From a virus (taxonomy: Duplodnaviria; Caudoviricetes): a stretch of 64,000 nt of DNA. Location of the stretch: positions 1-64,000 of the IMG/VR virus record IMGVR_UViG_3300021978_000001; one strand, 5' to 3'. Made by a program: the position numbers and the translations under genes. The notes below the pieces were generated by a model. That model ran no database searches and had not been told where the DNA came from. It saw only the letters and a program-made list of their open reading frames with translations. Of the stretch, positions 13,651-26,399 are shown piece by piece. Position 1 is the first letter of the stretch, and the number at the start of each line of letters is the position of its first letter.

Positions 13651-15828
13651 TCAGGCGCTCTTGACGAGTCCTTCCTCTTCCTGCGTCTGCATCTTGAAGT
13701 AAGCGCGCGTCCACTCGTCCTTGGTGTCCTGATCCCAGGTCAGCAGGCTCAGGAGCAGGTCTTCACGGCTCCCGCCCGCCCCTTCGAGCATCGAGAGACA
13801 CGTCAACATCTCGCGCCACACACCCTCGGGCTTGCGGTGCGCGAGGAGCTGGTGGAAGCGGTGTTCGAGGATGCGCTTGCCCGATGCCATGCAGCGCGCG
13901 ACCTTGGCCTTGCCACGGAAGTCTTCGGGCGCAACCCTCGCCATCGCCTTGGCCATGAGCGCGATGCAGTCCGTGTCCACCTTGTCCTCACCAAAGACAG
14001 ACTCGATGATGGTCAATACCTTGATGTAGAAGGGGATGACCTTCGTGGCTTCGAGCGAGCGCGCGGCGAGCAGGGCTTGACGGTCCGCGCCACGCACATG
14101 GTGCAGCGTCATCCAGTGCTTGTAGAGCATGGGGAGGAACTCATCTTTGCGGGCGTAGATTTGGCGGTGCATGGCGTCCTTCTTGGTCTGGTACGTGATG
14201 CCCAGCTTTTGGGCGATGGTGTCGGAGAGCTTGACGCGCTCCAGGTAGGAGGAAGTCGTCCCCGAATACTGCCCCACGACGAAATCGTAGGGGTGCTTGA
14301 CGTGCGAGAGGTGTTTGTTGAACTGCATGAACACCTCATCGGCCAGGGCGCGGTTGAAGCGCGGCAAGACCTCCTCGGTGTAGGTGTCCACGTCATCGGC
14401 GCGACGCACACCCATCACCAGATTGTCAAGGTGCTTGCTCATGAGGAGATCGAGCGGCGTGAGAAGCCTGGTTTTCGTTTTCCCTGCCACCTTTTTGTAA
14501 AGCCCGAGCCTCTCCGCCGTCGCGTCGAGATACCAATCCATTTCACGGATGCTTTCGAGCGCGTGGCTCAATGCGTCTCGTACAGCGGCAGCGTTCTTCC
14601 CGAAGAGAAGAGGGATCGTGGTATCCGTGCGCCCACGAATGATGCCTTGCTTGGCGTGCAAGGCCGTGACGCGAACGCGCGGGACACCGTTGCTCCACAC
14701 ATCGTAGATGTAGTCCAGATCAGCCATGCGCGCGGCGAGGTGCCTCAGTACAGGCACGCCCGGCGTGTGTTGGTCGAGGTAGATCGCTTTCCACGCCGAT
14801 GTTCCGAGCGTGTCATCCTGGGGCGCCTGGAGGATGCGCTCGCCGTCCTGCTTGCCTTTCGAGTACGTGGGGATGGTCGCGTTTTGCGGCCTGATCCAGA
14901 GACCCTCGTACTTGATCGCGCTCCCCTTCCCGCCGTTCTCATCTCGGAGCTTTTTGTAAAGCTCGTCCTGCGCGGGGCTGATGTAGATGAAGTGAATGAG
15001 GCCGTTCTCATCGGGGTCGGGAACCATGTACTCGCGCCATGGCACCAGAATCCCGAGCAAGGGGTGATGGTCTGCGGTGTGCAGAGCCAGACTGTCCCAT
15101 TTCCCCTTCTTGGTATACAAAGCGCGGAGCTTTGGCGGCTTGATCCAGGGGAGCGTGAAGTCGAGCGTCTTCTTGTGACCCCACAACTCGTCCATCTCGC
15201 TTCGCAGCAAGAGGTTACTGGTGAGGGTCTCCCAGAGGTCACGCCCCTGGAGCGTGAAGGACACTTCCGCGTTGGTGTCGCGCGTTCCCGATCCCCTGCC
15301 ATATGCGTTGCTCCCCAGGCTCATGTGGTCGAGCGCGGTGATATGAGCGATGACGTCGGGGACTTCCAGGGACATGTGGTAGTCCACGTCATCCCCGAGG
15401 CCCCAGGGACGCTGCTTCCCTGGGTAGTCGTGACCGTACTTGTCCGCAGCGACGCACGAACCGAGCGCGTGCGGACTCAGTGCTTCCTTCCATTTCTCCT
15501 GGAGGGCATACTCACGGTTCTCGGGGACGGTCTGAAGCGCGCGTGGGCCATCACCAAAGAAGTTGAAATCCTTGATGTGGGGTGCGAGCGCTTCGGTAAG
15601 CTCCGGGCGCTCCAGGATCATATCTTCCCACTCCTCGTTGGTCTCGGGAGGAGTCAGGTATTGGAGCATGGCGATGAGGAAGTGCTCGATCCCCTGGCTC
15701 CATGCCGCGAAGTCGTAGTCGAGCTGCAAGCCCTCCTCACGGAGACCGTCGAAGCTCACGAGCTTTTTCTCCCCTTTGGCATCGCAGACGCGGATGAAGG
15801 GGTCTGTCAGTAGGTTGAGTTGCGTCAT
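13651..15828 (-). CDS. cas8e: Cas8e (Cse1/CasA) fused to C-terminal Cas11 (Cse2/CasB)
   Basis: N-terminus LNLLTDPFIRV typical of CasA; last ~170 aa (RILEHRFHQLL...DLLLSLLTWDQDTKDEWTRAYF) typical of Cse2; one 725-aa ORF. Confidence 0.8.
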   Translation of the reverse strand: MTQLNLLTDPFIRVCDAKGEKKLVSFDGLREEGLQLDYDFAAWSQGIEHFLIAMLQYLTPPETNEEWEDMILERPELTEALAPHIKDFNFFGDGPRALQTVPENREYALQEKWKEALSPHALGSCVAADKYGHDYPGKQRPWGLGDDVDYHMSLEVPDVIAHITALDHMSLGSNAYGRGSGTRDTNAEVSFTLQGRDLWETLTSNLLLRSEMDELWGHKKTLDFTLPWIKPPKLRALYTKKGKWDSLALHTADHHPLLGILVPWREYMVPDPDENGLIHFIYISPAQDELYKKLRDENGGKGSAIKYEGLWIRPQNATIPTYSKGKQDGERILQAPQDDTLGTSAWKAIYLDQHTPGVPVLRHLAARMADLDYIYDVWSNGVPRVRVTALHAKQGIIRGRTDTTIPLLFGKNAAAVRDALSHALESIREMDWYLDATAERLGLYKKVAGKTKTRLLTPLDLLMSKHLDNLVMGVRRADDVDTYTEEVLPRFNRALADEVFMQFNKHLSHVKHPYDFVVGQYSGTTSSYLERVKLSDTIAQKLGITYQTKKDAMHRQIYARKDEFLPMLYKHWMTLHHVRGADRQALLAARSLEATKVIPFYIKVLTIIESVFGEDKVDTDCIALMAKAMARVAPEDFRGKAKVARCMASGKRILEHRFHQLLAHRKPEGVWREMLTCLSMLEGAGGSREDLLLSLLTWDQDTKDEWTRAYFKMQTQEEEGLVKSA

Positions 15829-15831
15829 CGG

Positions 15832-16575
15832 TCAAGCTCCTTGCGTGAGGGTCTGGTAGGTGCCCTGGTGCTCGACGCGCTCGCGTTGCGAACCCGTCTT
15901 GGTCAGGTCATTGGGGACGTCGCGGCGGTAGTGCTCCTGCTCGACCTCACCGAGCGCGAGCGACTTGTCCCAACGCACCTCGCCGGGGTAGCAAGCGACG
16001 CCTTGCTCTGCCAACAGCGGGAAGCTCGAAAGGTGCGCCTCCCTGAGCGCGCTCAGAGCGTCCGTAGCCTCCAGGATGCGTGGGTTGAGGGGTGAGCTAG
16101 GGGTACAGCTCTTGCGTCCAATGTAGACCGGCCAGTGCGGTTTACGCAGCGCTTGGCAGAGGTCTTCGATGTGCAGCGCTTCTCCCACCTCCAAAATGAC
16201 CGTGAACGCATGGTCGATGAGGTAGTCCCGCTCGGTGAGCATGGTCTTGACGTGGGGGTGATGGACCGCGCCCTTGCGCGTGGTCGGCATCGGCGCGCTC
16301 TTGTTCGGGCCTTCAACCCACTTCACCGTGTGGAAGTCTCGCTGGTAGGAGGGCGTCGTTTGCCCCACGCGATAGGCGAGCGTGACCATCTTCGTGTTGT
16401 TTGCGAGCGCGTGGTGCATTGCTCGCTGGTGACGGGGGATACCGAGCGCGCAGGCAAGAAGCCCGAGCACCGCGCTCTTGGTTGGGGCACTCTCCGTGGT
16501 GCGCATGTTCGCCGTGGCGACGCCCCCAAAGGACATCATCGGGGCGCGGAGATCGAAAGCAAGGTATTGTTTCAT
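15832..16575 (-). CDS. cas5: Cas5e (CasD)
   Basis: LAFDLRAPMMSFG...PTKSAVLGLLACALGI, RDYLID and YIGRKSC motifs; start MKQY after AGAGG. Confidence 0.95.
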   Translation of the reverse strand: MKQYLAFDLRAPMMSFGGVATANMRTTESAPTKSAVLGLLACALGIPRHQRAMHHALANNTKMVTLAYRVGQTTPSYQRDFHTVKWVEGPNKSAPMPTTRKGAVHHPHVKTMLTERDYLIDHAFTVILEVGEALHIEDLCQALRKPHWPVYIGRKSCTPSSPLNPRILEATDALSALREAHLSSFPLLAEQGVACYPGEVRWDKSLALGEVEQEHYRRDVPNDLTKTGSQRERVEHQGTYQTLTQGA

Positions 16576-16611
16576 AACTTCCTCTTGTTGGTTTAGGACA
16601 CACACCTTTCA

Positions 16612-16636
16612 TACCACAGATGATACGAGGTGTAAA
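16612..16636 (-). promoter_or_regulatory. promoter for cas5-cas8e/11 (TTTACA-N12-TGTGGTA)
   Basis: recurring motif, directly after the array 2 trailer. Confidence 0.65.
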
Positions 16637-16637
16637 A

Positions 16638-17018
16638 GGAACACTCCCACAATGGTGGGAAAAAGACTCTCATCGCATCGGACCAGAACCATCCCCACAG
16701 AGGTGGGGAACACTAGTCTCGCGTTTCTTCGACGCCAAGTGTGAACGGACCATCTCCGCACATGCGGAGAACACTTTATGCATGCATTGCCAATCTTCAA
16801 TCCGAAGGGACCATCCCCGCGTGCGCGGGGAATACGCAATCGTGACATGGTGCGCTTATAATGCCGTGGGACCATCCCCGCAAAGGCGGGGAACACGCAC
16901 CCGTGACGCTCGTGATTTCGGTCGCCCCGGGACCATCCCCACACGCGTGGGGAACACTGAAGGCGCCCTCATCGGCACACAAGATCATGGGGACCATCCC
17001 CACACGCGTGGGGAACAC
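16638..17018 (-). CRISPR. type I-E array 2 (7 repeats, 6 spacers) between cas6 and cas5
   Basis: repeats at 16638, 16686, 16747, 16808, 16869, 16930, 16991; leader A at 17019. Confidence 0.93.
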
Positions 17019-17050
17019 TCTGAGACATCTTGTCACAGTTACAAGCACAG

Positions 17051-17776
17051 TCACAGAAGCTCGATCTGCGGCGCGGGCTTCACGAGCATCATCCCGGCAC
17101 CGAACGCCTTGCCGCGTCCCAACCCCTCGCGCCACACGGTCATGAAGGCGTCCACGTCCGTCACGCGCACGCGCATCTCGACCTGCACCATGTCCACCAC
17201 GATCTTGCGTCCGCGCTTGCGACCCTCGGAGCGCTGCATGTCGGTCAAACACTCCAGGCGCTCGATGGTGAAGCCGCACTTGTCCGCGCGGGCTTCCATC
17301 CACTCGACCATGAGATCGTGGAGAGGGCGCGCCTCGCGGTCCTCGATGGCGGCGAAGATGCGCTCGTAGGTATCCACGGCGAGGCGCTTGGGCTGGCCAT
17401 CCTCGATCAAGCGCTTGTCTCGTGTCTGGATCGTCGGGTTCACCCAGACGCGGACGTGCAAGGGTTGACCTTCGGTGAGCTGTGGCGTCATCTCTCGCGT
17501 CTGCACCTGGAAGTAGGGCGTCTCGCGGGGAGGCTCTTGAGAGATCATGTAGAAGATCCCACCCGTGGGAGGCGTACACAGGTAAGGGCGCTCACCCCCA
17601 GCCTCGACCTCGAAGAGTTCATAGAGGAGCTGGTGCAAGGCGTAACAGCCCTCGCCGCTCATTTGCATGAGCTTCTTGACACCCTGTTTCGTGTAGCGGC
17701 ACTGCGAGAGGTAGATGGGAGCCTCCTCGGATGCGGGTTTTGGTGGATTGAAGAGTTCTTGTTGTTGTGCAGTCAT
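17051..17776 (-). CDS. cas6: Cas6e (CasE) crRNA endonuclease
   Basis: HQLLYELF, VRVWVNPT and C-terminal G-loop GLGRGKAFGAGMMLV. Confidence 0.95.
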   Translation of the reverse strand: MTAQQQELFNPPKPASEEAPIYLSQCRYTKQGVKKLMQMSGEGCYALHQLLYELFEVEAGGERPYLCTPPTGGIFYMISQEPPRETPYFQVQTREMTPQLTEGQPLHVRVWVNPTIQTRDKRLIEDGQPKRLAVDTYERIFAAIEDREARPLHDLMVEWMEARADKCGFTIERLECLTDMQRSEGRKRGRKIVVDMVQVEMRVRVTDVDAFMTVWREGLGRGKAFGAGMMLVKPAPQIELL

Positions 17777-17788
17777 TGTTCTTCCTTT

Positions 17789-18125
17789 GAATTATCCCCA
17801 CTCATGTGGGGAACGTTTTAAAGAGCCTATCACTCAGCGTCAGGCTGGAATCGAACCATCCCCACAAGGGTGGGGAACACCGATTCGCGCGCCCTTATGT
17901 CCTAGTCCAAGACGGGACCACCCCCGCGTGTGCGGGGAACACTCTTCGGGGAGTGCTTCGAGGTCGCTTGCCGCAGGACCATCCCCGCATGCGCGGGGAA
18001 CACGTAATCCTGACCCAGACGATTCAGTTTGGTCACGGACCATCCCCGCACATGCGGGGAACACGCGACCCTCACCCGAAGCCTTGGAAGGTCGTAAGGA
18101 CCATCCCCGCGTATGCGGGGAACAC
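17789..18125 (-). CRISPR. type I-E array 3 (6 repeats, 5 spacers) between cas7 and cas6
   Basis: repeats at 17789, 17853, 17915, 17976, 18037, 18098. Confidence 0.93.
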
Positions 18126-18180
18126 CCTGTGCCACTTTGTCACGGTTGATGACAGGAGTGACACAGGGGAACGAAGGTCA

Positions 18181-19578
18181 TCACTCGGCAGCAGCCACTT
18201 CCTGCTCGATCTTGCCGAAGATCGACGTCAAGGTCTTCTCCACGAGGGCGTTCAGGTCAGGCGCGACCTCACCACCGGACGCCAGGGGCTCCAGGTCGTG
18301 CGTCTTTGCCCAGGTCGTGACCGCGCGGTGCTCCAGGTTCATGCGCGTGACCACGAGGTCATGGTGACGCTCCAGGCGCTCGATCGCTTCCTCGACGACG
18401 TTGCTCGACTCGACAGGCTGCATGAACGCGTCGGTGTACTGCGTCGGCTGTTCATCGGTCACGGTCGCCAGGACGTAGGAGGCGGGGATGAGGGATGCCA
18501 TCGTGGTCTGCTGACCGCCCGCCTGATACTTGACCATCGACTGCAAGACCGCCGCGACCGCCTCACGCGTCAAGTCCACGACATCACCCGTATCGGTGGT
18601 GCCTTCGACGTACAGCGTGCGCATGAGCTGGTGGAGGTCGATCGCCACGAAGTCGTAGAAGACCGTCGAGGTCATCGTCTTGAAGCCGTTGTGCGCCGAT
18701 CCGGTGTTGGGATCGAACGCATCCGTCGCGGTGAAGAAATCCGAGTCACCCACATACTCGGTCACGCCGATGCTGTGCGCGAAGCGGATGGCGCCATCCG
18801 CAGCAGGCATGTTCGTGTCCGAGGCGATCATGCGCCCGAAGAGCCCGATGTCCACGTTGGGAGAGGCTTGCGCCGTGGCGAAGTCCTTCTGGATCTGTGC
18901 GAAGGTTTCCGCGACCTTCTCATTGTAGACGGTCTCCAGGAGGCTCTTGTACGCCTCTTCCTTGTCCTCGGTCTCTTCGGTCTCGGTCTCCTCGGTGTCA
19001 CTCGTCAGCGCGGTGATGGCGGGCTTGAGGTCTGCCATGCCGTCCACGAGCTTGTCGAGCGCGTCCACCAAGCAGGCTTCCTCACTCTGCTTGACCTTGA
19101 TCGAAGCCGAGAGCGTGCGCCCGTCCTTCTTGACGTCTCCCTTGTCGCTGTGTGCGAAAGCCTCGATGCCTCCCTGGCTGTAGGTGATGCCGTCCTTGAT
19201 GGCAGCCTCGAAGGCGGACTTGCTACACGTCTTCTTCTTGCCAAAGAGCGGCGCGAGCAAGAGCGCTGCGGCGTAGGCGAACACGGGGTCTGCGCCGTCC
19301 TCGATCGCATCCTCGGAGATCTTGTTGAGGATCGTGCGCGTGTTGGTGCTCATGGACTGCTTCTCACGCAAGCCGTCGAAGAACGGACCGTTGCGCATGA
19401 TGCTTTTCCGGCACTGCGAGGATTCGCGAGCACGCAGGACACCTGCAAAGTCAGAGACCTTGGGTTGCCCCTGCTTGTCGCGGTTGCGGTTGCCTGGTGC
19501 GCTCGGGAGCAGCACATGCAAAGCGATCAGCTTTGGCGTGATTGCCAGAAGGGTGTTGAGTGCGTTTTTCTTTGCCAT
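18181..19578 (-). CDS. cas7: Cas7e (CasC) backbone subunit
   Basis: NRNRDKQGQPK...RARESSQCRK, VDIGLFGRMIA, DFFTATD...GSAH motifs; start MAKK chosen from RBS spacing. Confidence 0.93.
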   Translation of the reverse strand: MAKKNALNTLLAITPKLIALHVLLPSAPGNRNRDKQGQPKVSDFAGVLRARESSQCRKSIMRNGPFFDGLREKQSMSTNTRTILNKISEDAIEDGADPVFAYAAALLLAPLFGKKKTCSKSAFEAAIKDGITYSQGGIEAFAHSDKGDVKKDGRTLSASIKVKQSEEACLVDALDKLVDGMADLKPAITALTSDTEETETEETEDKEEAYKSLLETVYNEKVAETFAQIQKDFATAQASPNVDIGLFGRMIASDTNMPAADGAIRFAHSIGVTEYVGDSDFFTATDAFDPNTGSAHNGFKTMTSTVFYDFVAIDLHQLMRTLYVEGTTDTGDVVDLTREAVAAVLQSMVKYQAGGQQTTMASLIPASYVLATVTDEQPTQYTDAFMQPVESSNVVEEAIERLERHHDLVVTRMNLEHRAVTTWAKTHDLEPLASGGEVAPDLNALVEKTLTSIFGKIEQEVAAAE

Positions 19579-19642
19579 TTTCATCTTCCTGTACTCGTAG
19601 TCGTGTGGAGCGGCACACCCCCATGGCGCGCCCTTCTCCGGG

Positions 19643-19671
19643 GGATCATTCCCACATGAGGTGGGAAGCAT
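19643..19671 (-). repeat. orphan degenerate CRISPR repeat upstream of cas7
   Basis: GGATCATTCCCACATGAGGTGGGAAGCAT (+): repeat-like with intact TCCCAC/GTGGGA stem. Confidence 0.7.
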
Positions 19672-19678
19672 GTTTTGG

Positions 19679-19708
19679 ACTATACGGTCCTATGCGATGC
19701 GTTGTCAA
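19679..19708 (-). promoter_or_regulatory. sigma70 promoter for cas7 (TTGACA-N18-TATAGT)
   Basis: near-consensus -35/-10 read on the minus strand between cas3 and the orphan repeat. Confidence 0.7.
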
Positions 19709-19717
19709 CACCTTTTT

Positions 19718-22339
19718 TTACGGTTTCTGTAAACCGAGGTATGCATCATACGAAAGCATGATAGCGCCGCCCTGTTCATCGACCATCGGGAGATCCCATC
19801 CATAGGAAGTCTTCGTGGCGATGACGACCTCGCGCGTTTGCTTGAAGGGGAAGCTATCCAGGATCGCCTCGGGAATCTCGGGGCGGTCGTATGCCCAGTA
19901 GATGGGGATGGTGATGCGTGAGCCAGAGCGTGTACCTGCGACCGGGACGAGGACGCCGTTCTCTTCATACCAGACCTCCCAACGCCTCGACGGGATGATG
20001 TCTCGGGTCTGGATGGGCTTCTCGCTCCCCCACAAGGCTGCGGACTTCGCGTAAGTCTTGCTAAAATCCAGCGTCCCACGTCTCGCCGTGTTGCCTGTAT
20101 CCTCATCGCGCAAGAGGACGCGCTCGTGTACATGCGCGAGCGACTTGGGGATCTCATCCTTGGCGCGGCGTAACAGCTCGCGTGTATCGCAAGGAAGCTG
20201 CCAGGGGTCTTTGCACAAGGAAGCGGAGGTGTAGAGCGTTGCGATGTCCGGGTAGATGTAGCGCGTGTCTTGCAGGCTCGGGCTGTGCTCGACCCACCGT
20301 GCGTCTGGTGTTCCGATCAGAGGAGGCGTGAAAAGCCCCATGCACACGTTGATACGTTCGCCGTCTTCGTGACGCAGGACACGTCCAGCGCGCTGGATAA
20401 GCAGGTCCACGTCACACACGTCGCTGATTCCCCAGTCAAAGCTCACGTCGAGGGATTCCTGCAAGACCTGGGTGCAGACCACGATCTTACCGCGCCGTGC
20501 ATCCTTCGGGGCGCCACGGCCAAAGGAGGTAACGAGAATCTCATCGCGCTTTTGACGGTCTGCGAGCGTATACCTCGAATGGGTCAAGATCACATCATCG
20601 TACCTGGCCTTGATCGCTTCATACGCACGACAGGCGGAGTTGACCGTGTTGCGGAACCAAACCACCGCCTCCCCATCATACGCGCGTTGCACGAGTTCAT
20701 TGACCACGGCATCGAGTGACCCCTGATCCTCGAAGATCTCCCAGTGAAGCTCGCGCTTCTGGTGTGGGTTGACCGACTGCACCTGGCGTATCGCGTCCCC
20801 CTGGACATACGTCATCGCGGGCAAGGTGGGTGGTGTGTCTGCTTTCGCGCGCCCGCTCGTGTATGCGTCAATAAGCATGGAGCGCGCTTCGGCGTCGCAT
20901 GTCGCTGACATCGCGATGACAGGTTGGCCCGCGCGTCCGCACCACTGGAGCAAGGCACACAGCAAGGGCATCATGTGTGCATCCATCGTGTGGACCTCAT
21001 CCAACACGAGCACCGAGCGGGAGAGCGCGGCGAGACGCATGGGCGCGAAGTACCTCGGAATCACCGCCAGCAAGAGCTGGTCGATGGTGCAGACATTGAC
21101 CTGGGAGAAGAGCGCTTGACGTGAGGACGAGTTGAGCCACTCCGACGCGGTGAGGGTTCCCCCCTGGGAATCCTTCAAGATGCGCCACGTTCTGTTCTCC
21201 TGGCGCGAGGAGTGAATCAGGGAGAGGGTGGGAGGCTCGGTGAACGAAACCTCTGCGTATTCCATGACCCGAGGGAAGATCCCGTTGGCCGTGGCGCGTG
21301 TCGGGAGCGCGAAGGTGATGCCCTTGCATCCGCTCTTGTGCATCATCTCCCTGGCGAGCGCGAGCCCTGCTTCTGTCTTACCCGCGCCTGTGGCGTCCTC
21401 GATCAAGATGAAGCCTTCCCCCTCGATCTGCCTCGCCATGCCCTGTGCGGCGCGCTGGAGAGGTCTGGGGCTATGTTCTGGTGCGAGGAGTCCTTCCCAA
21501 AACTCGGTCTCGCGTACCGGCACATGCGCGAACTGCACATCCTCATACGCGCGCGTCGCGCCCGAGAGCGCGTAGCAATGCCAGTACGTCCTCGGGTCCA
21601 TCCAATCGCCGTGGAGCGTGAAGTAATCCTGGGTCGAACCGAGCCAATCACTGATCTGGCCAATCCCGGCGAGCAACCAGGACGCACGTTCCATGTCGGG
21701 CGCCTTGGTGTAATCGCCTTGCAAGCCCCCCATCGCGAGCTTGATCGCCTCACAATGCGCCTCGAAGCGCTCCTGCGTATTGCGAACCTTGACGCCGTTC
21801 TCGACATCCGCCCACTGCTCGCTGGCCTTGGGTCGGTTGTTCGGGTCGATCCCGGTTTTCTTTTGGAAGGGGAGCGCGTAGCCATGGTGCGAGAAGCTCG
21901 CGTGCAAGAGCGCGTTGATCTCTCGCTTCCCCACGCCAAGGAAGCCCTGGACCTTGCGTAGCATGGTGTATCCCACGAGATCATGGCGCATCTCCGCGCC
22001 GGGGATCTCCAGGATAGGCTTTGGCTCGAAGGGTTCGAGCGAGTTCAGGTACGCGACCGCCTGCGCGCTCTTTGCCTGAAAGTTGTCGGTGAGCTTCCCG
22101 AGGTCATGGAACATGTACAGGAGAGCCATGTCATGCATGAGGACATGCCTTGAGACCCCGAGAGCTTCACAAAGTTGGCGGCCCCATTCATCCTCGCGCT
22201 GGAGCATGACATAGACACAGCCCGCGACATCCATATTGTGGTACAACACGAGGTGGATGCCCTGGACGGGCGCCTCGCTGCCGGGCGACTGGTCGGTCTT
22301 TGCCCAGCAGCGGTTGTAGGGTAGGAAGTGGGTGGACAT
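19718..22339 (-). CDS. cas3: Cas3 HD nuclease-SF2 helicase
   Basis: HNMDVA, FHDLGK, SHHG, SDWLGS (HD); DATGAGKTE, DEVH, MSAT, LIQRAGRVLRH (helicase). Confidence 0.96.
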   Translation of the reverse strand: MSTHFLPYNRCWAKTDQSPGSEAPVQGIHLVLYHNMDVAGCVYVMLQREDEWGRQLCEALGVSRHVLMHDMALLYMFHDLGKLTDNFQAKSAQAVAYLNSLEPFEPKPILEIPGAEMRHDLVGYTMLRKVQGFLGVGKREINALLHASFSHHGYALPFQKKTGIDPNNRPKASEQWADVENGVKVRNTQERFEAHCEAIKLAMGGLQGDYTKAPDMERASWLLAGIGQISDWLGSTQDYFTLHGDWMDPRTYWHCYALSGATRAYEDVQFAHVPVRETEFWEGLLAPEHSPRPLQRAAQGMARQIEGEGFILIEDATGAGKTEAGLALAREMMHKSGCKGITFALPTRATANGIFPRVMEYAEVSFTEPPTLSLIHSSRQENRTWRILKDSQGGTLTASEWLNSSSRQALFSQVNVCTIDQLLLAVIPRYFAPMRLAALSRSVLVLDEVHTMDAHMMPLLCALLQWCGRAGQPVIAMSATCDAEARSMLIDAYTSGRAKADTPPTLPAMTYVQGDAIRQVQSVNPHQKRELHWEIFEDQGSLDAVVNELVQRAYDGEAVVWFRNTVNSACRAYEAIKARYDDVILTHSRYTLADRQKRDEILVTSFGRGAPKDARRGKIVVCTQVLQESLDVSFDWGISDVCDVDLLIQRAGRVLRHEDGERINVCMGLFTPPLIGTPDARWVEHSPSLQDTRYIYPDIATLYTSASLCKDPWQLPCDTRELLRRAKDEIPKSLAHVHERVLLRDEDTGNTARRGTLDFSKTYAKSAALWGSEKPIQTRDIIPSRRWEVWYEENGVLVPVAGTRSGSRITIPIYWAYDRPEIPEAILDSFPFKQTREVVIATKTSYGWDLPMVDEQGGAIMLSYDAYLGLQKP

Positions 22340-22432: not shown

Positions 22433-22714
22433 TTAGTAATCACCCATGATGTAGTGGTCGAAGGAAGCGTAGTAAACACACTGGAAACCGCACTCGCACA
22501 CGAAACCCTGACGGGGATAGCACTGCCGGATTTCCGCAGGAGACATCAATTCGGCGGAAGGCCGATGAAAATTGATCGTGCCTACCGTCTTCCCGCACTT
22601 CTGGCACGTCATCTCGTGCAGCTCTTCCTGGGGTGTGAAGTCGTCTGGTCGAGGGGGAGGTTCGGTAGGCCCCATGATAAAGGCCATCGCGGCTTTCATT
22701 TCATCGTCTGTCAT
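22433..22714 (-). CDS. small Zn-binding protein
   Basis: CQKC and CECGFQC motifs, 93 aa. Confidence 0.6.
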   Translation of the reverse strand: MTDDEMKAAMAFIMGPTEPPPRPDDFTPQEELHEMTCQKCGKTVGTINFHRPSAELMSPAEIRQCYPRQGFVCECGFQCVYYASFDHYIMGDY

Positions 22715-23401: not shown

Positions 23402-23525
23402 GAGCCATCCCTGCACATGCAGGGAACAGTGAGCAGACATGCCATGTCGTTTCAGTAACTTGCGGACCATCCCCACATGTATGGGGAATACGAATCAAAA
23501 GTTACGCTTCAGAACCATCCCCCGC
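23402..23525 (-). CRISPR. degenerate array remnant (2 repeats plus a half repeat)
   Basis: repeats at 23402 and 23464; GAACCATCCCCCGC half repeat at 23512 ending at a gene stop. Confidence 0.7.
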
Positions 23526-23921
23526 CTAAGCATCTCGTGTAGTGGTACATGCCTTTTGGGGCGTTTCGGTGGTTCCAACGTGCGGAGCGTAAAGTGTCGT
23601 ACATTCGATGCTCTCCAATCCAAGGGCGTCTCGGAGGTCGTGGAGGACCAGGGAGACTTCGGTTGCCAGGGGGTGAGGGCGTCCCCTGTTGTAGTTCTTG
23701 ACCATGTTCGTGGCGGCGAGTTGTTTCCTCATCTCTTTGCAGCACTCGAAGGCAATTTCGAGCCTGTCCTGTACGTGTTCGGGGCGGCTGATTTTTCGGG
23801 TGCAGGCACCCAGGGTCTTGGCGCAAGCGCGCACCACTTCGTTCCCGTCATCCCAGCGCACAGCCTGTGCGATCACTTCGATGGTCACGTTCTTCAGTTG
23901 CTCGATCGTTGCGTCTTCCAT
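23526..23921 (-). CDS. hypothetical protein
   Basis: MEDATIEQ start after AAGGAG RBS, promoter motif upstream. Confidence 0.65.
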   Translation of the reverse strand: MEDATIEQLKNVTIEVIAQAVRWDDGNEVVRACAKTLGACTRKISRPEHVQDRLEIAFECCKEMRKQLAATNMVKNYNRGRPHPLATEVSLVLHDLRDALGLESIECTTLYAPHVGTTETPQKACTTTRDA

Positions 23922-23971
23922 GGGTCGGCTCCTTGTGGTGTGTGCCGTTGTCTTGTCGTTACATCTACTGG

Positions 23972-25472: not shown

Positions 25473-25628
25473 AGGTTAGCCCCGCATGTGCGGGGAACGC
25501 ACTGGCGGTGTACGAGTTCGTGCAGCGGTTCGGGCCAGGACCATCCCCACATACATGGGGAAATACTTTTGGGATCTTGTCCTGCGGTTCCTGTTCGAGC
25601 GGACCATCCCCGCAGAGGCGGGGAACTA
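25473..25628 (-). CRISPR. type I-E array 5 (3 repeats, 2 spacers), no leader seen
   Basis: repeats at 25473, 25538, 25601; last repeat abuts the stop codon of the embedded ORF. Confidence 0.85.
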
Positions 25629-25859
25629 TCAAATACGCCCTTGCTCTTGCATGCGCCCATGCATCTCAAGAGCATCGAGGTTTGCCTGGCTCTCTGTATC
25701 TGCGGTACCCCCAGCCAGGGTGATGGTCTCTGCTCCTCCACCAACGCTGGGGATAACCTCTTCGATGTACCAGCGCCACTGGTTATCCTCGGGATCTGCG
25801 AAGCTGAATTTCGCTCTGTACTCGTCTGGACTTGAAATTCGTACCGTAATCATGAGCAT
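25629..25859 (-). CDS. small hypothetical protein lying between two CRISPR repeats
   Basis: 76-aa ORF MLMITVRISSPDEYRAKF... filling the 260-nt gap between repeats 25601 and 25889. Confidence 0.55.
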   Translation of the reverse strand: MLMITVRISSPDEYRAKFSFADPEDNQWRWYIEEVIPSVGGGAETITLAGGTADTESQANLDALEMHGRMQEQGRI

Positions 25860-25888
25860 TCTCGTTGTTGGTGCCCCTTGGGGCGGTT

Positions 25889-26282
25889 GGACCATCCCCG
25901 CACACGCGGGGAACATCGGACAGGGAACTTAGGCGCGCGATGGCGTCCCGGGCCATCCCCGCATACGCGGGGAACATCCACTCAGGGGATCGATGTACGC
26001 AAAACGTATCGGACCATCCCCGCACACGCGGGGAACACACCACGGCCACAGTACAAGCCGGGATCACCGCCGGACCATCCCCGCATGTGCGGGGAACACG
26101 CACTTGACGAGCGCTGTCTTGCAGAGTGATGGGAACCATCCCCGCATGCGCGAGGAATACGGTGCGGGTGTCTGGAGGTGTCCCTTGATGTCCGAACCAT
26201 CCCCGCACGTGCGGGGAACACGATGCCATCCGCACCAACGGCCCTCGCAATCTCGAACCATCCCCGCACGTGCGGGGAACAC
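25889..26282 (-). CRISPR. type I-E array 6 (7 repeats, 6 spacers)
   Basis: repeats at 25889, 25950, 26011, 26072, 26133, 26194, 26255 at 61-bp period. Confidence 0.95.
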
Positions 26283-26399
26283 TCTTCAAATGTTCAGTCC
26301 TCTAAGCCCTCGGATTCCTTACAGAATCCTCAGACCCCCTCGAACCCGTTTCCCTGTACCGAGTCAAAAGGTACCGCAACATCCCAAACCCTGTCAAGC
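26283..26399 (-). promoter_or_regulatory. leader family B with promoter (TTGACA-N13-TGCGGTA)
   Basis: about 117-bp sequence conserved at 29057 and 31212. Confidence 0.8.

What the first reader, a model, noticed from the sequence alone, without database searches (positions are those of the whole stretch)
25601..25916. A protein-coding gene embedded between two repeats like a 260-nt spacer
Between repeats 25601-25628 and 25889-25916 lies a 76-aa ORF whose stop codon abuts the downstream repeat and whose start is 29 nt from the upstream repeat. Array 5 has no leader, so arrays 6 and 5 read as one array with a gene inside. Cas6 would release it as a discrete mRNA with handle and hairpin. This could be gene capture into an array, or a cassette-like expression strategy (inference).
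Basis: partly seen in the sequence, partly recalled or inferred. Interest (0 to 1): 0.68.

Follow-up and report, generated by a model that had tools for sequence, protein, structure and literature searches.

The report
Phage gene sandwiched between CRISPR repeats
A 437-kb marine phage with its own CRISPR weapon keeps a small, conserved protein gene wedged between two CRISPR repeats, so the CRISPR RNA-cutting enzyme probably cuts out its messenger RNA; sister strains suggest that repeats spread around an ordinary gene rather than that a gene was captured as a giant spacer.

Summary
Observation confirmed. The ORF at 25629-25853 (minus strand, 74 aa; the 76-aa start exists only in this strain) is a real gene: three sister strains keep it at the same place, 66-73% identical, dN/dS 0.09-0.31 in all six pairs, and it folds confidently (pLDDT 91). 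No homolog outside this clade, no family hit. The downstream repeat abuts the stop in all four strains; no leader, promoter or terminator lies in the gap. But in two of three sisters the upstream repeat is an array-end repeat (hairpin kept, handle lost), like those before other genes of this phage, where array-gene-array is the general layout (cas6 itself). Two kb away, repeats have overwritten phage DNA at AA-preceded sites, deleting a gene that sisters keep. Best reading: an ordinary accessory gene of the array-6 operon, boxed in by recombination-spread repeats, released by Cas6 as a 288-nt mRNA (inferred). Capture into one array remains possible; no donor was found. Gene-sized inserts in arrays are known (Sulfolobus SiL-E1), and this scan noted similar inserts in other genomes.

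The parts
26283..26397 (-). Leader family B of array 6 with the only TTGACA box of the unit (26397); probable promoter of array 6, the ORF, array 5 and three downstream genes
   Evidence: same leader before arrays at 29056, 31211 and genome 405817, 408652
25889..26282 (-). Array 6: seven type I-E-like repeats with 33-nt spacers
25889..25916 (-). Upstream repeat; full handle in the window and L021, terminal-type (handle lost) in L015 and L016; the handle's ATG (25895) is in frame with the ORF, 42 nt before its start
25854..25888 (-). 35-nt 5' untranslated region with a 4-bp G-C hairpin (25873-25884) whose stem is kept and loop varies in four strains, then an A/C-rich stretch and a weak GAG ribosome-binding site
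25629..25853 (-). 74-aa acidic protein gene (pI 4.4), beta-alpha-beta-beta-alpha fold, function not identified
25601..25628 (-). Downstream repeat abutting the stop codon; its first three bases read TAG (TAA in L015, where they are the stop codon)
25473..25628 (-). Array 5: leaderless, three repeats and two spacers here, two repeats and one spacer in sisters; last repeat is terminal-type and sits 19 nt before the next start codon
25031..25453 (-). Downstream gene (PHROG 3163, unknown function), followed by 131-aa and 205-aa genes to 24014
23402..23491 (-). Comparison site: two repeats absent in sisters; they replace about 59 and 203 nt of phage DNA (most of a 67-aa gene), and the DNA after each is native phage DNA preceded by AA in sisters
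13651..22339 (-). Phage type I-E effector locus cas3, cas7, cas6 (17051-17776), cas5, cas8/cas11 with arrays between the genes; no cas1 in the complete genome

Best explanation
An ordinary small accessory gene of this phage clade that has been boxed in by CRISPR repeats. Shown: the gene is conserved and selected as protein; it lies behind array 6 and directly before a leaderless mini-array in four strains; repeats of this phage do overwrite neighbouring phage DNA. Inferred: the leader-B promoter makes one transcript (array 6, ORF, array 5, three genes); the phage's Cas6 cuts at the base of each repeat hairpin and frees a 288-nt mRNA (25895 to 25608) that keeps Cas6 on its 3' hairpin, plus crRNAs and the downstream mRNA. 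Inferred origin: recombination between repeats, or between a spacer and its protospacer in co-infecting sister phages, replaced the intergenic DNA behind the gene up to the first base that selection protects, the stop codon, and in some strains converted the terminal repeat in front of the gene back to a full repeat, tolerated because the handle's ATG falls in frame. The same recombination lets alleles be swapped. The protein most likely acts on a host or rival-phage protein early in infection (small, acidic, no enzyme motif, fast-changing); this last step is a guess from its anatomy.
For: dN/dS 0.09-0.31, Fisher p 2e-5 to 4e-3 in six pairs; the only indel inside the gene is one codon. Coding model +10 bits in frame, negative in five other frames. 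AlphaFold pLDDT 91. Terminal-type upstream repeat in L015 and L016, matching nine other array ends that keep the hairpin and lose the handle. cas6 and cas5-cas8 also lie between arrays. Repeats at 23402 and 23464 replace 203 and about 59 nt in two sisters, both junctions preceded by AA (AA frequency 0.045 each). A half repeat also abuts the stop at 23526. In the distant relative L002 the PHROG 3163-like gene (33% identical) has no repeat in front of it. Two sister spacers match phage genes a few hundred bases behind their own array (29/33 and 25/32). The window allele has dS 0.63-0.88 to sisters while flanking genes have 0.05-0.16.
Against: No strain shows the gene without the downstream repeat, so the overwriting event itself is not seen at this site. 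No AA-PAM signature at either junction of the ORF (the base pair before the 'spacer' in sisters is TA). Array 5 ends in a fixed terminal repeat plus ribosome-binding site, as a once-complete array would. Cas6 cleavage, transcription and translation were not measured.
Confidence: 0.55

Rival explanations
1. True capture: arrays 6 and 5 were one array, and the gene entered it as a pseudo-spacer by a double crossover between two adjacent spacers and the two ends of the gene in a targeted phage (the reciprocal product of the event seen at 23402); the upstream repeat later lost its handle in some strains.
For: Array 5 has no leader and no intergenic base behind the stop; two of four strains have full repeats on both sides; the deletion-type product of such a crossover is seen 2 kb away; precedent SiL-E1 (PMC3718332).
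Against: No donor locus or empty site found; no PAM signature at the ends; a 'spacer' starting with A is rare here (3 of 68 repeats); going from full to terminal-type repeat needs three substitutions and a 3-nt insertion, the reverse needs one recombination.
Confidence: 0.25
2. Selected regulatory device: the repeats are kept so that Cas6 and Cas7 control this mRNA (Cas6 on the 3' hairpin under the terminating ribosome, Cas7 coating a long handle-less RNA as on Racr RNAs), linking the protein's level to Cascade supply; the protein could be an anti-CRISPR or a Cascade modulator.
For: Zero distance between stop and repeat in four strains, with the repeat's first bases turned into a stop triplet; intact hairpins; conserved 5' hairpin; small acidic protein; acr-racr bicistrons exist (PMC10651486).
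Against: The handle state is polymorphic (2 of 4); no Acr, PADLOC or Pfam match and no Acr among the fold matches listed; a phage that uses its own I-E system gains little from inhibiting it; abutment is also expected from deletion up to a selected boundary.
Confidence: 0.15
3. Chance ORF in non-coding DNA, or an assembly join.
For: No homolog outside the clade.
Against: Purifying selection in four strains from four samples; identical independent contig across the region; confident fold.
Confidence: 0.02

Closest known systems
CRISPR-Cas systems and compact arrays of huge phages that lack Cas1/Cas2 (Al-Shayeb et al. 2020, PMC7162821)
   Same: Huge phage, effector genes without cas1, short arrays, some spacers matching related phage genes.
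   Different: Here arrays alternate with protein genes on one transcript and one gene is bounded by repeats with no gap at its stop; the passages read do not describe this.
Pseudo-spacer SiL-E1 of Sulfolobus islandicus LAL14/1 (PMC3718332)
   Same: Gene-bearing DNA between two repeats, followed by more repeat-spacer units; recombination through spacers proposed as one route.
   Different: SiL-E1 is a 2-kb plasmid piece in one strain with a known donor; this is one whole phage gene with its own 5' region, fixed in four strains, under purifying selection, donor unknown.
Spacer-protospacer recombination between phages and arrays (Varble et al. 2019, Watson et al. 2018, as cited in PMC8616872; original not held)
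   Same: Explains repeats that replace phage DNA in front of a protospacer (23402, 23464).
   Different: Described for host arrays and transduction; here phage array against sister phage. Not shown at the ORF's own junctions.
Racr / solitary repeat units beside acr genes (Camara-Wilpert et al. 2023, PMC10651486)
   Same: Repeat directly behind a small phage gene on one transcript (11 nt behind acrIC5 in that paper), processed by Cas6.
   Different: These are arrays with spacers, not solitary repeats, in a phage that encodes the matching Cascade and Cas3; no Acr evidence.
Engineered Csy4/Cas6 cutting of polycistronic mRNA (Qi et al. 2012; from memory)
   Same: Repeats between genes would give separate mRNAs with fixed ends.
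   Different: That is a synthetic design; here it would be natural and is untested.

Membership tests
Type I-E CRISPR spacer | Length about 33 nt | tested here: not met
   260 nt against 30-36 nt for nearly all other spacers
Type I-E CRISPR spacer | Full repeat with 5' handle on both sides | tested here: inconclusive
   Met in the window and L021, not in L015 and L016; downstream repeat differs at its first bases in all
Type I-E CRISPR spacer | PAM (AA + first base) at the source site | tested here: inconclusive
   TA precedes the insert in sisters, AA only with a one-base slip; no source site known
Pseudo-spacer (SiL-E1 type) | Gene-sized DNA between repeats with further repeat-spacer units behind | tested here: met
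Pseudo-spacer (SiL-E1 type) | Collinear donor element and an empty array in related strains | tested here: inconclusive
   No donor and no empty site among four strains and five related phage records
Racr / solitary repeat unit | Single repeat, not part of an array | tested here: not met
   Both repeats belong to arrays with spacers
Racr / solitary repeat unit | Inhibits interference | not testable with these tools
   Needs a phage or plasmid interference assay
Anti-CRISPR protein | Sequence or fold match to a known Acr | tested here: inconclusive
   No family hit; best fold matches Z 5-5.6 to unrelated small alpha/beta proteins
Huge-phage CRISPR-Cas without adaptation module | cas3, cas8/11, cas7, cas5, cas6 present | tested here: met
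   (cas8 and cas7 below the curated cut-off but E 6e-15 and 2e-41)
Huge-phage CRISPR-Cas without adaptation module | No cas1 | tested here: met
   PF01867 absent from the complete genome, controls ring; cas2 not searched
Integron gene cassette | IntI integrase and attC sites; different genes at the same site | not tested
   Integrase not searched; all four strains carry alleles of the same gene at this site

The most novel reading that the evidence does not exclude
This phage clade uses CRISPR repeats as general punctuation and recombination sites: whole genes sit as repeat-bounded cassettes that Cas6 cuts out as separate mRNAs (in two strains starting exactly at an in-frame AUG supplied by the repeat handle) and that are gained, swapped and deleted by recombination at repeats and spacers, an integron-like use of a CRISPR array kept by selection.
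Probability: 0.2. Interest if true: 0.8.

Novelty: new variant of a known kind. Interest (0 to 1): 0.5.

Why it matters
It is a small, cloneable natural unit in which Cas6 would process a protein-coding mRNA at both ends, something known from engineering and hinted at by acr-racr loci. Sister strains give natural variants (handle present or absent, stop inside or outside the repeat), and the neighbouring site records how phage-against-phage CRISPR conflict can plant repeats in a genome and delete a gene. If the repeats prove neutral passengers it is still a clear case of arrays remodelling a phage operon; if they control the gene it would be a new use of CRISPR RNA processing.

Tried and rejected
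Homolog searches: only the four clade alleles; the 1.8-billion search gave itself and one repetitive 1370-aa protein, taken as chance; the viral hit L019 is a 21-residue piece inside an unrelated 536-aa terminase-like ORF; metagenome scan empty; PHROG 6989 at E 0.09 and ESM feature hits under 0.9 are leads only. No paralog in the genome or in four related phage records, three of them incomplete. Fold searches: nothing at E <= 0.001 in PDB or BFVD; best BFVD rows are unnamed 60-70-aa viral proteins (TM 0.6-0.7); dsRBD-like, DUF1508-like and MmoD rows at Z 4-5.6 show only a common arrangement. No RNA holder listed for the stretch. No spacer from ten loci matches the ORF. Host not identified: cas6 and cas7 scans found no relative. 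The consensus promoter scan misses this phage's promoters (none found even at 26397), so motif checks were used instead. An open frame alone was weak evidence (14% of random 60-substitution trials stay open). Leaderless translation from the handle AUG was considered; Cas6 leaves a 5' hydroxyl, which from memory disfavours it, and the literature search for it failed. A more distant strain (L027, L029) was found but not its copy of this locus. Varble 2019 could not be read. No complex prediction was run, since no binding is claimed.

Full report
Setting. The window is the first 64 kb of a complete 437,490-bp phage record with direct terminal repeats; the probable source is a hydrothermal-vent metagenome and laid relatives come from marine samples. 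A repeat scan finds about eleven short arrays of a 28-nt type I-E-like repeat, all on the minus strand, with no hit in shuffled genomes. cas3, cas7, cas6, cas5 and a cas8-cas11 fusion lie at 13651-22339 with arrays between them; cas1 is absent.

Observation. The two repeats, the 260-nt gap, the 76-aa ORF, the stop codon touching the downstream repeat and the 29-nt distance are all as described. An independent contig spans 23269-26300 without a difference. Array 5 has no leader of either family, no TTGACR box, no phage-promoter motif, and no terminator-like site precedes it. The only TTGACR on the minus strand between 23900 and 26450 is in the leader of array 6.

The ORF is a gene. Database searches first returned only itself. 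Through the neighbouring genes I fetched contigs of three sister strains from three other samples: L015, L016, L021. Each carries the ORF at the same place (75-76 aa), 66-73% identical to the window's and 91-96% to each other. dN/dS is 0.09-0.31 in all six pairs (Fisher p 2e-5 to 4e-3) and the one internal indel is a whole codon. The shared start is 25853, giving 74 aa. A genome-trained coding model scores +10 bits in this frame and negative in the other five. AlphaFold gives pLDDT 91 with a beta-alpha-beta-beta-alpha fold; the Atlas model has pLDDT 0.82. The fold resembles many unnamed 60-70-aa phage proteins and no named family. The protein is acidic in all strains (pI 4.4-4.9). No Pfam, NCBIfam or PADLOC match.

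What the sisters change. The downstream repeat abuts the stop in all four strains; its first three bases read TAG, or TAA in L015 where they serve as the stop. The upstream repeat is polymorphic: full in the window and L021, but in L015 and L016 it keeps the hairpin and has lost the handle, the form seen at nine other array ends of this phage, most of them just before a ribosome-binding site. Terminal repeats are generally the most mutated (PMC12839519). In those strains the ORF is therefore the gene behind array 6, like the genes behind the other arrays. Where the handle is present its ATG is in frame with the ORF, 42 nt upstream; this has a one-in-three chance but also explains why the full repeat is tolerated. 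A 4-bp hairpin in the 5' region keeps its stem in all four strains (four close sequences, weak evidence). Array 5 differs in spacer number and content between strains although it has no leader, which points to recombination. The window allele is far more diverged from its sisters (dS 0.63-0.88) than the flanking genes are (0.05-0.16), while its ends match L021, so it was probably swapped in from a more distant relative.

How repeats get next to genes here. At 23402-23491 the window has two repeats that L015 and L016 lack. There the sisters have continuous phage DNA including a 67-aa gene; one repeat replaces 203 nt, the other about 59 nt, and the DNA behind each repeat is native phage sequence preceded by AA in the sisters, as a type I-E PAM would be (AAG in E. 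coli; PMC4499155). This is what recombination between an array with adjacent phage-derived spacers and the phage genome would leave; such recombination is reported for other systems (cited in PMC8616872). Two sister spacers do match phage genes lying just behind their own arrays, one with AA before the window's copy and AC before the strain's own. A half repeat also abuts the stop at 23526. In the distant relative L002 the homolog of the gene behind array 5 has no repeat in front of it. I infer that repeats spread over intergenic DNA until they meet a selected base, which explains abutment to stop codons. At the ORF's own junctions, however, no PAM signature is seen, and no strain lacks the downstream repeat, so origin by capture into one array is not excluded.

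Mechanism. Inferred from the layout and from established Cas6e behaviour (cut at the hairpin base, 7-nt handle before a 33-nt spacer, enzyme stays on the 3' hairpin; PMC4499155): one transcript from 26397 is cut into crRNAs, a 288-nt mRNA for this gene (25895-25608) and a downstream mRNA for three genes. The phage Cas6 matches TIGR01907 over its full length and keeps the glycine-rich C-terminal loop; activity untested. Whether the cuts only separate the RNAs or regulate the gene is open. No expression data could be obtained.

Comparison. Closest are huge-phage CRISPR systems without Cas1 (PMC7162821), the 2-kb pseudo-spacer SiL-E1 (PMC3718332) and acr-racr bicistrons (PMC10651486). It fails as a normal spacer and as a solitary repeat, and is inconclusive as a pseudo-spacer or Acr. 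My phrase searches found no paper on a single conserved gene bounded by repeats in a phage array; the library is incomplete. Notes of this scan describe the interleaved cas locus and tRNA-repeat chimeras of this genome and gene-sized inserts in arrays of other genomes; I used them as leads only.

Verdict. Real feature, real gene, probably Cas6-released mRNA; most likely a product of repeat spread in a phage whose operons alternate arrays and genes. New variant of a known kind, interest 0.5; cassette-system reading 20% likely, interest 0.8 if true.

Noticed in passing
window 23402-23491 versus L015 2985-3281 and L016 2669-2965: Two repeats replace about 59 and 203 nt of phage DNA, deleting most of a 67-aa gene that sisters keep; both junctions are preceded by AA in sisters.
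   Followed up: yes
L017 107-140 and L017 668-700; window 22539-22571: A spacer of array 4 in strain L017 matches the 93-aa gene 560 nt behind the array (29/33); the strain's own copy is preceded by AC, the window's by AA.
   Followed up: partly
L029 385-417; window 30705-30736: The last spacer of array 8 in strain L029 matches the window's allele of the gene directly behind array 8 (25/32).
   Followed up: partly
G000 C1:120214-128072 and 148855 (L025, L026): Single or paired repeats inside the tRNA cluster, two of them within tRNA-shaped sequences (128009-128086; tRNA-Lys-like at 148855).
   Followed up: no
window 23916-23926 versus L015 2314-2508: Sisters carry an extra 64-aa gene between the 205-aa and 131-aa genes that the window lacks, without repeats at its ends.
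   Followed up: no
window 27088-27889: The 258-aa gene region is absent from two sister strains (802-nt skip).
   Followed up: no
G000 C1:405004-405634 (L023): Two small ORFs lie between the terminal repeat of one array and a lone repeat that has its own promoter and leader A; the sister contig L030 was not long enough to compare.
   Followed up: partly
L002 1-10000: A related jumbo phage has the same cas gene order without arrays between the cas genes, and arrays with a different repeat in both orientations.
   Followed up: partly
window 25917-25949 and 28873-28905: Near-identical spacer in arrays 6 and 7; the array-6 form is also kept in L015 and L021.
   Followed up: partly
G000 C1:120038-120110: tRNA with CUA anticodon (amber-reading) called by ARAGORN.
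   Followed up: no
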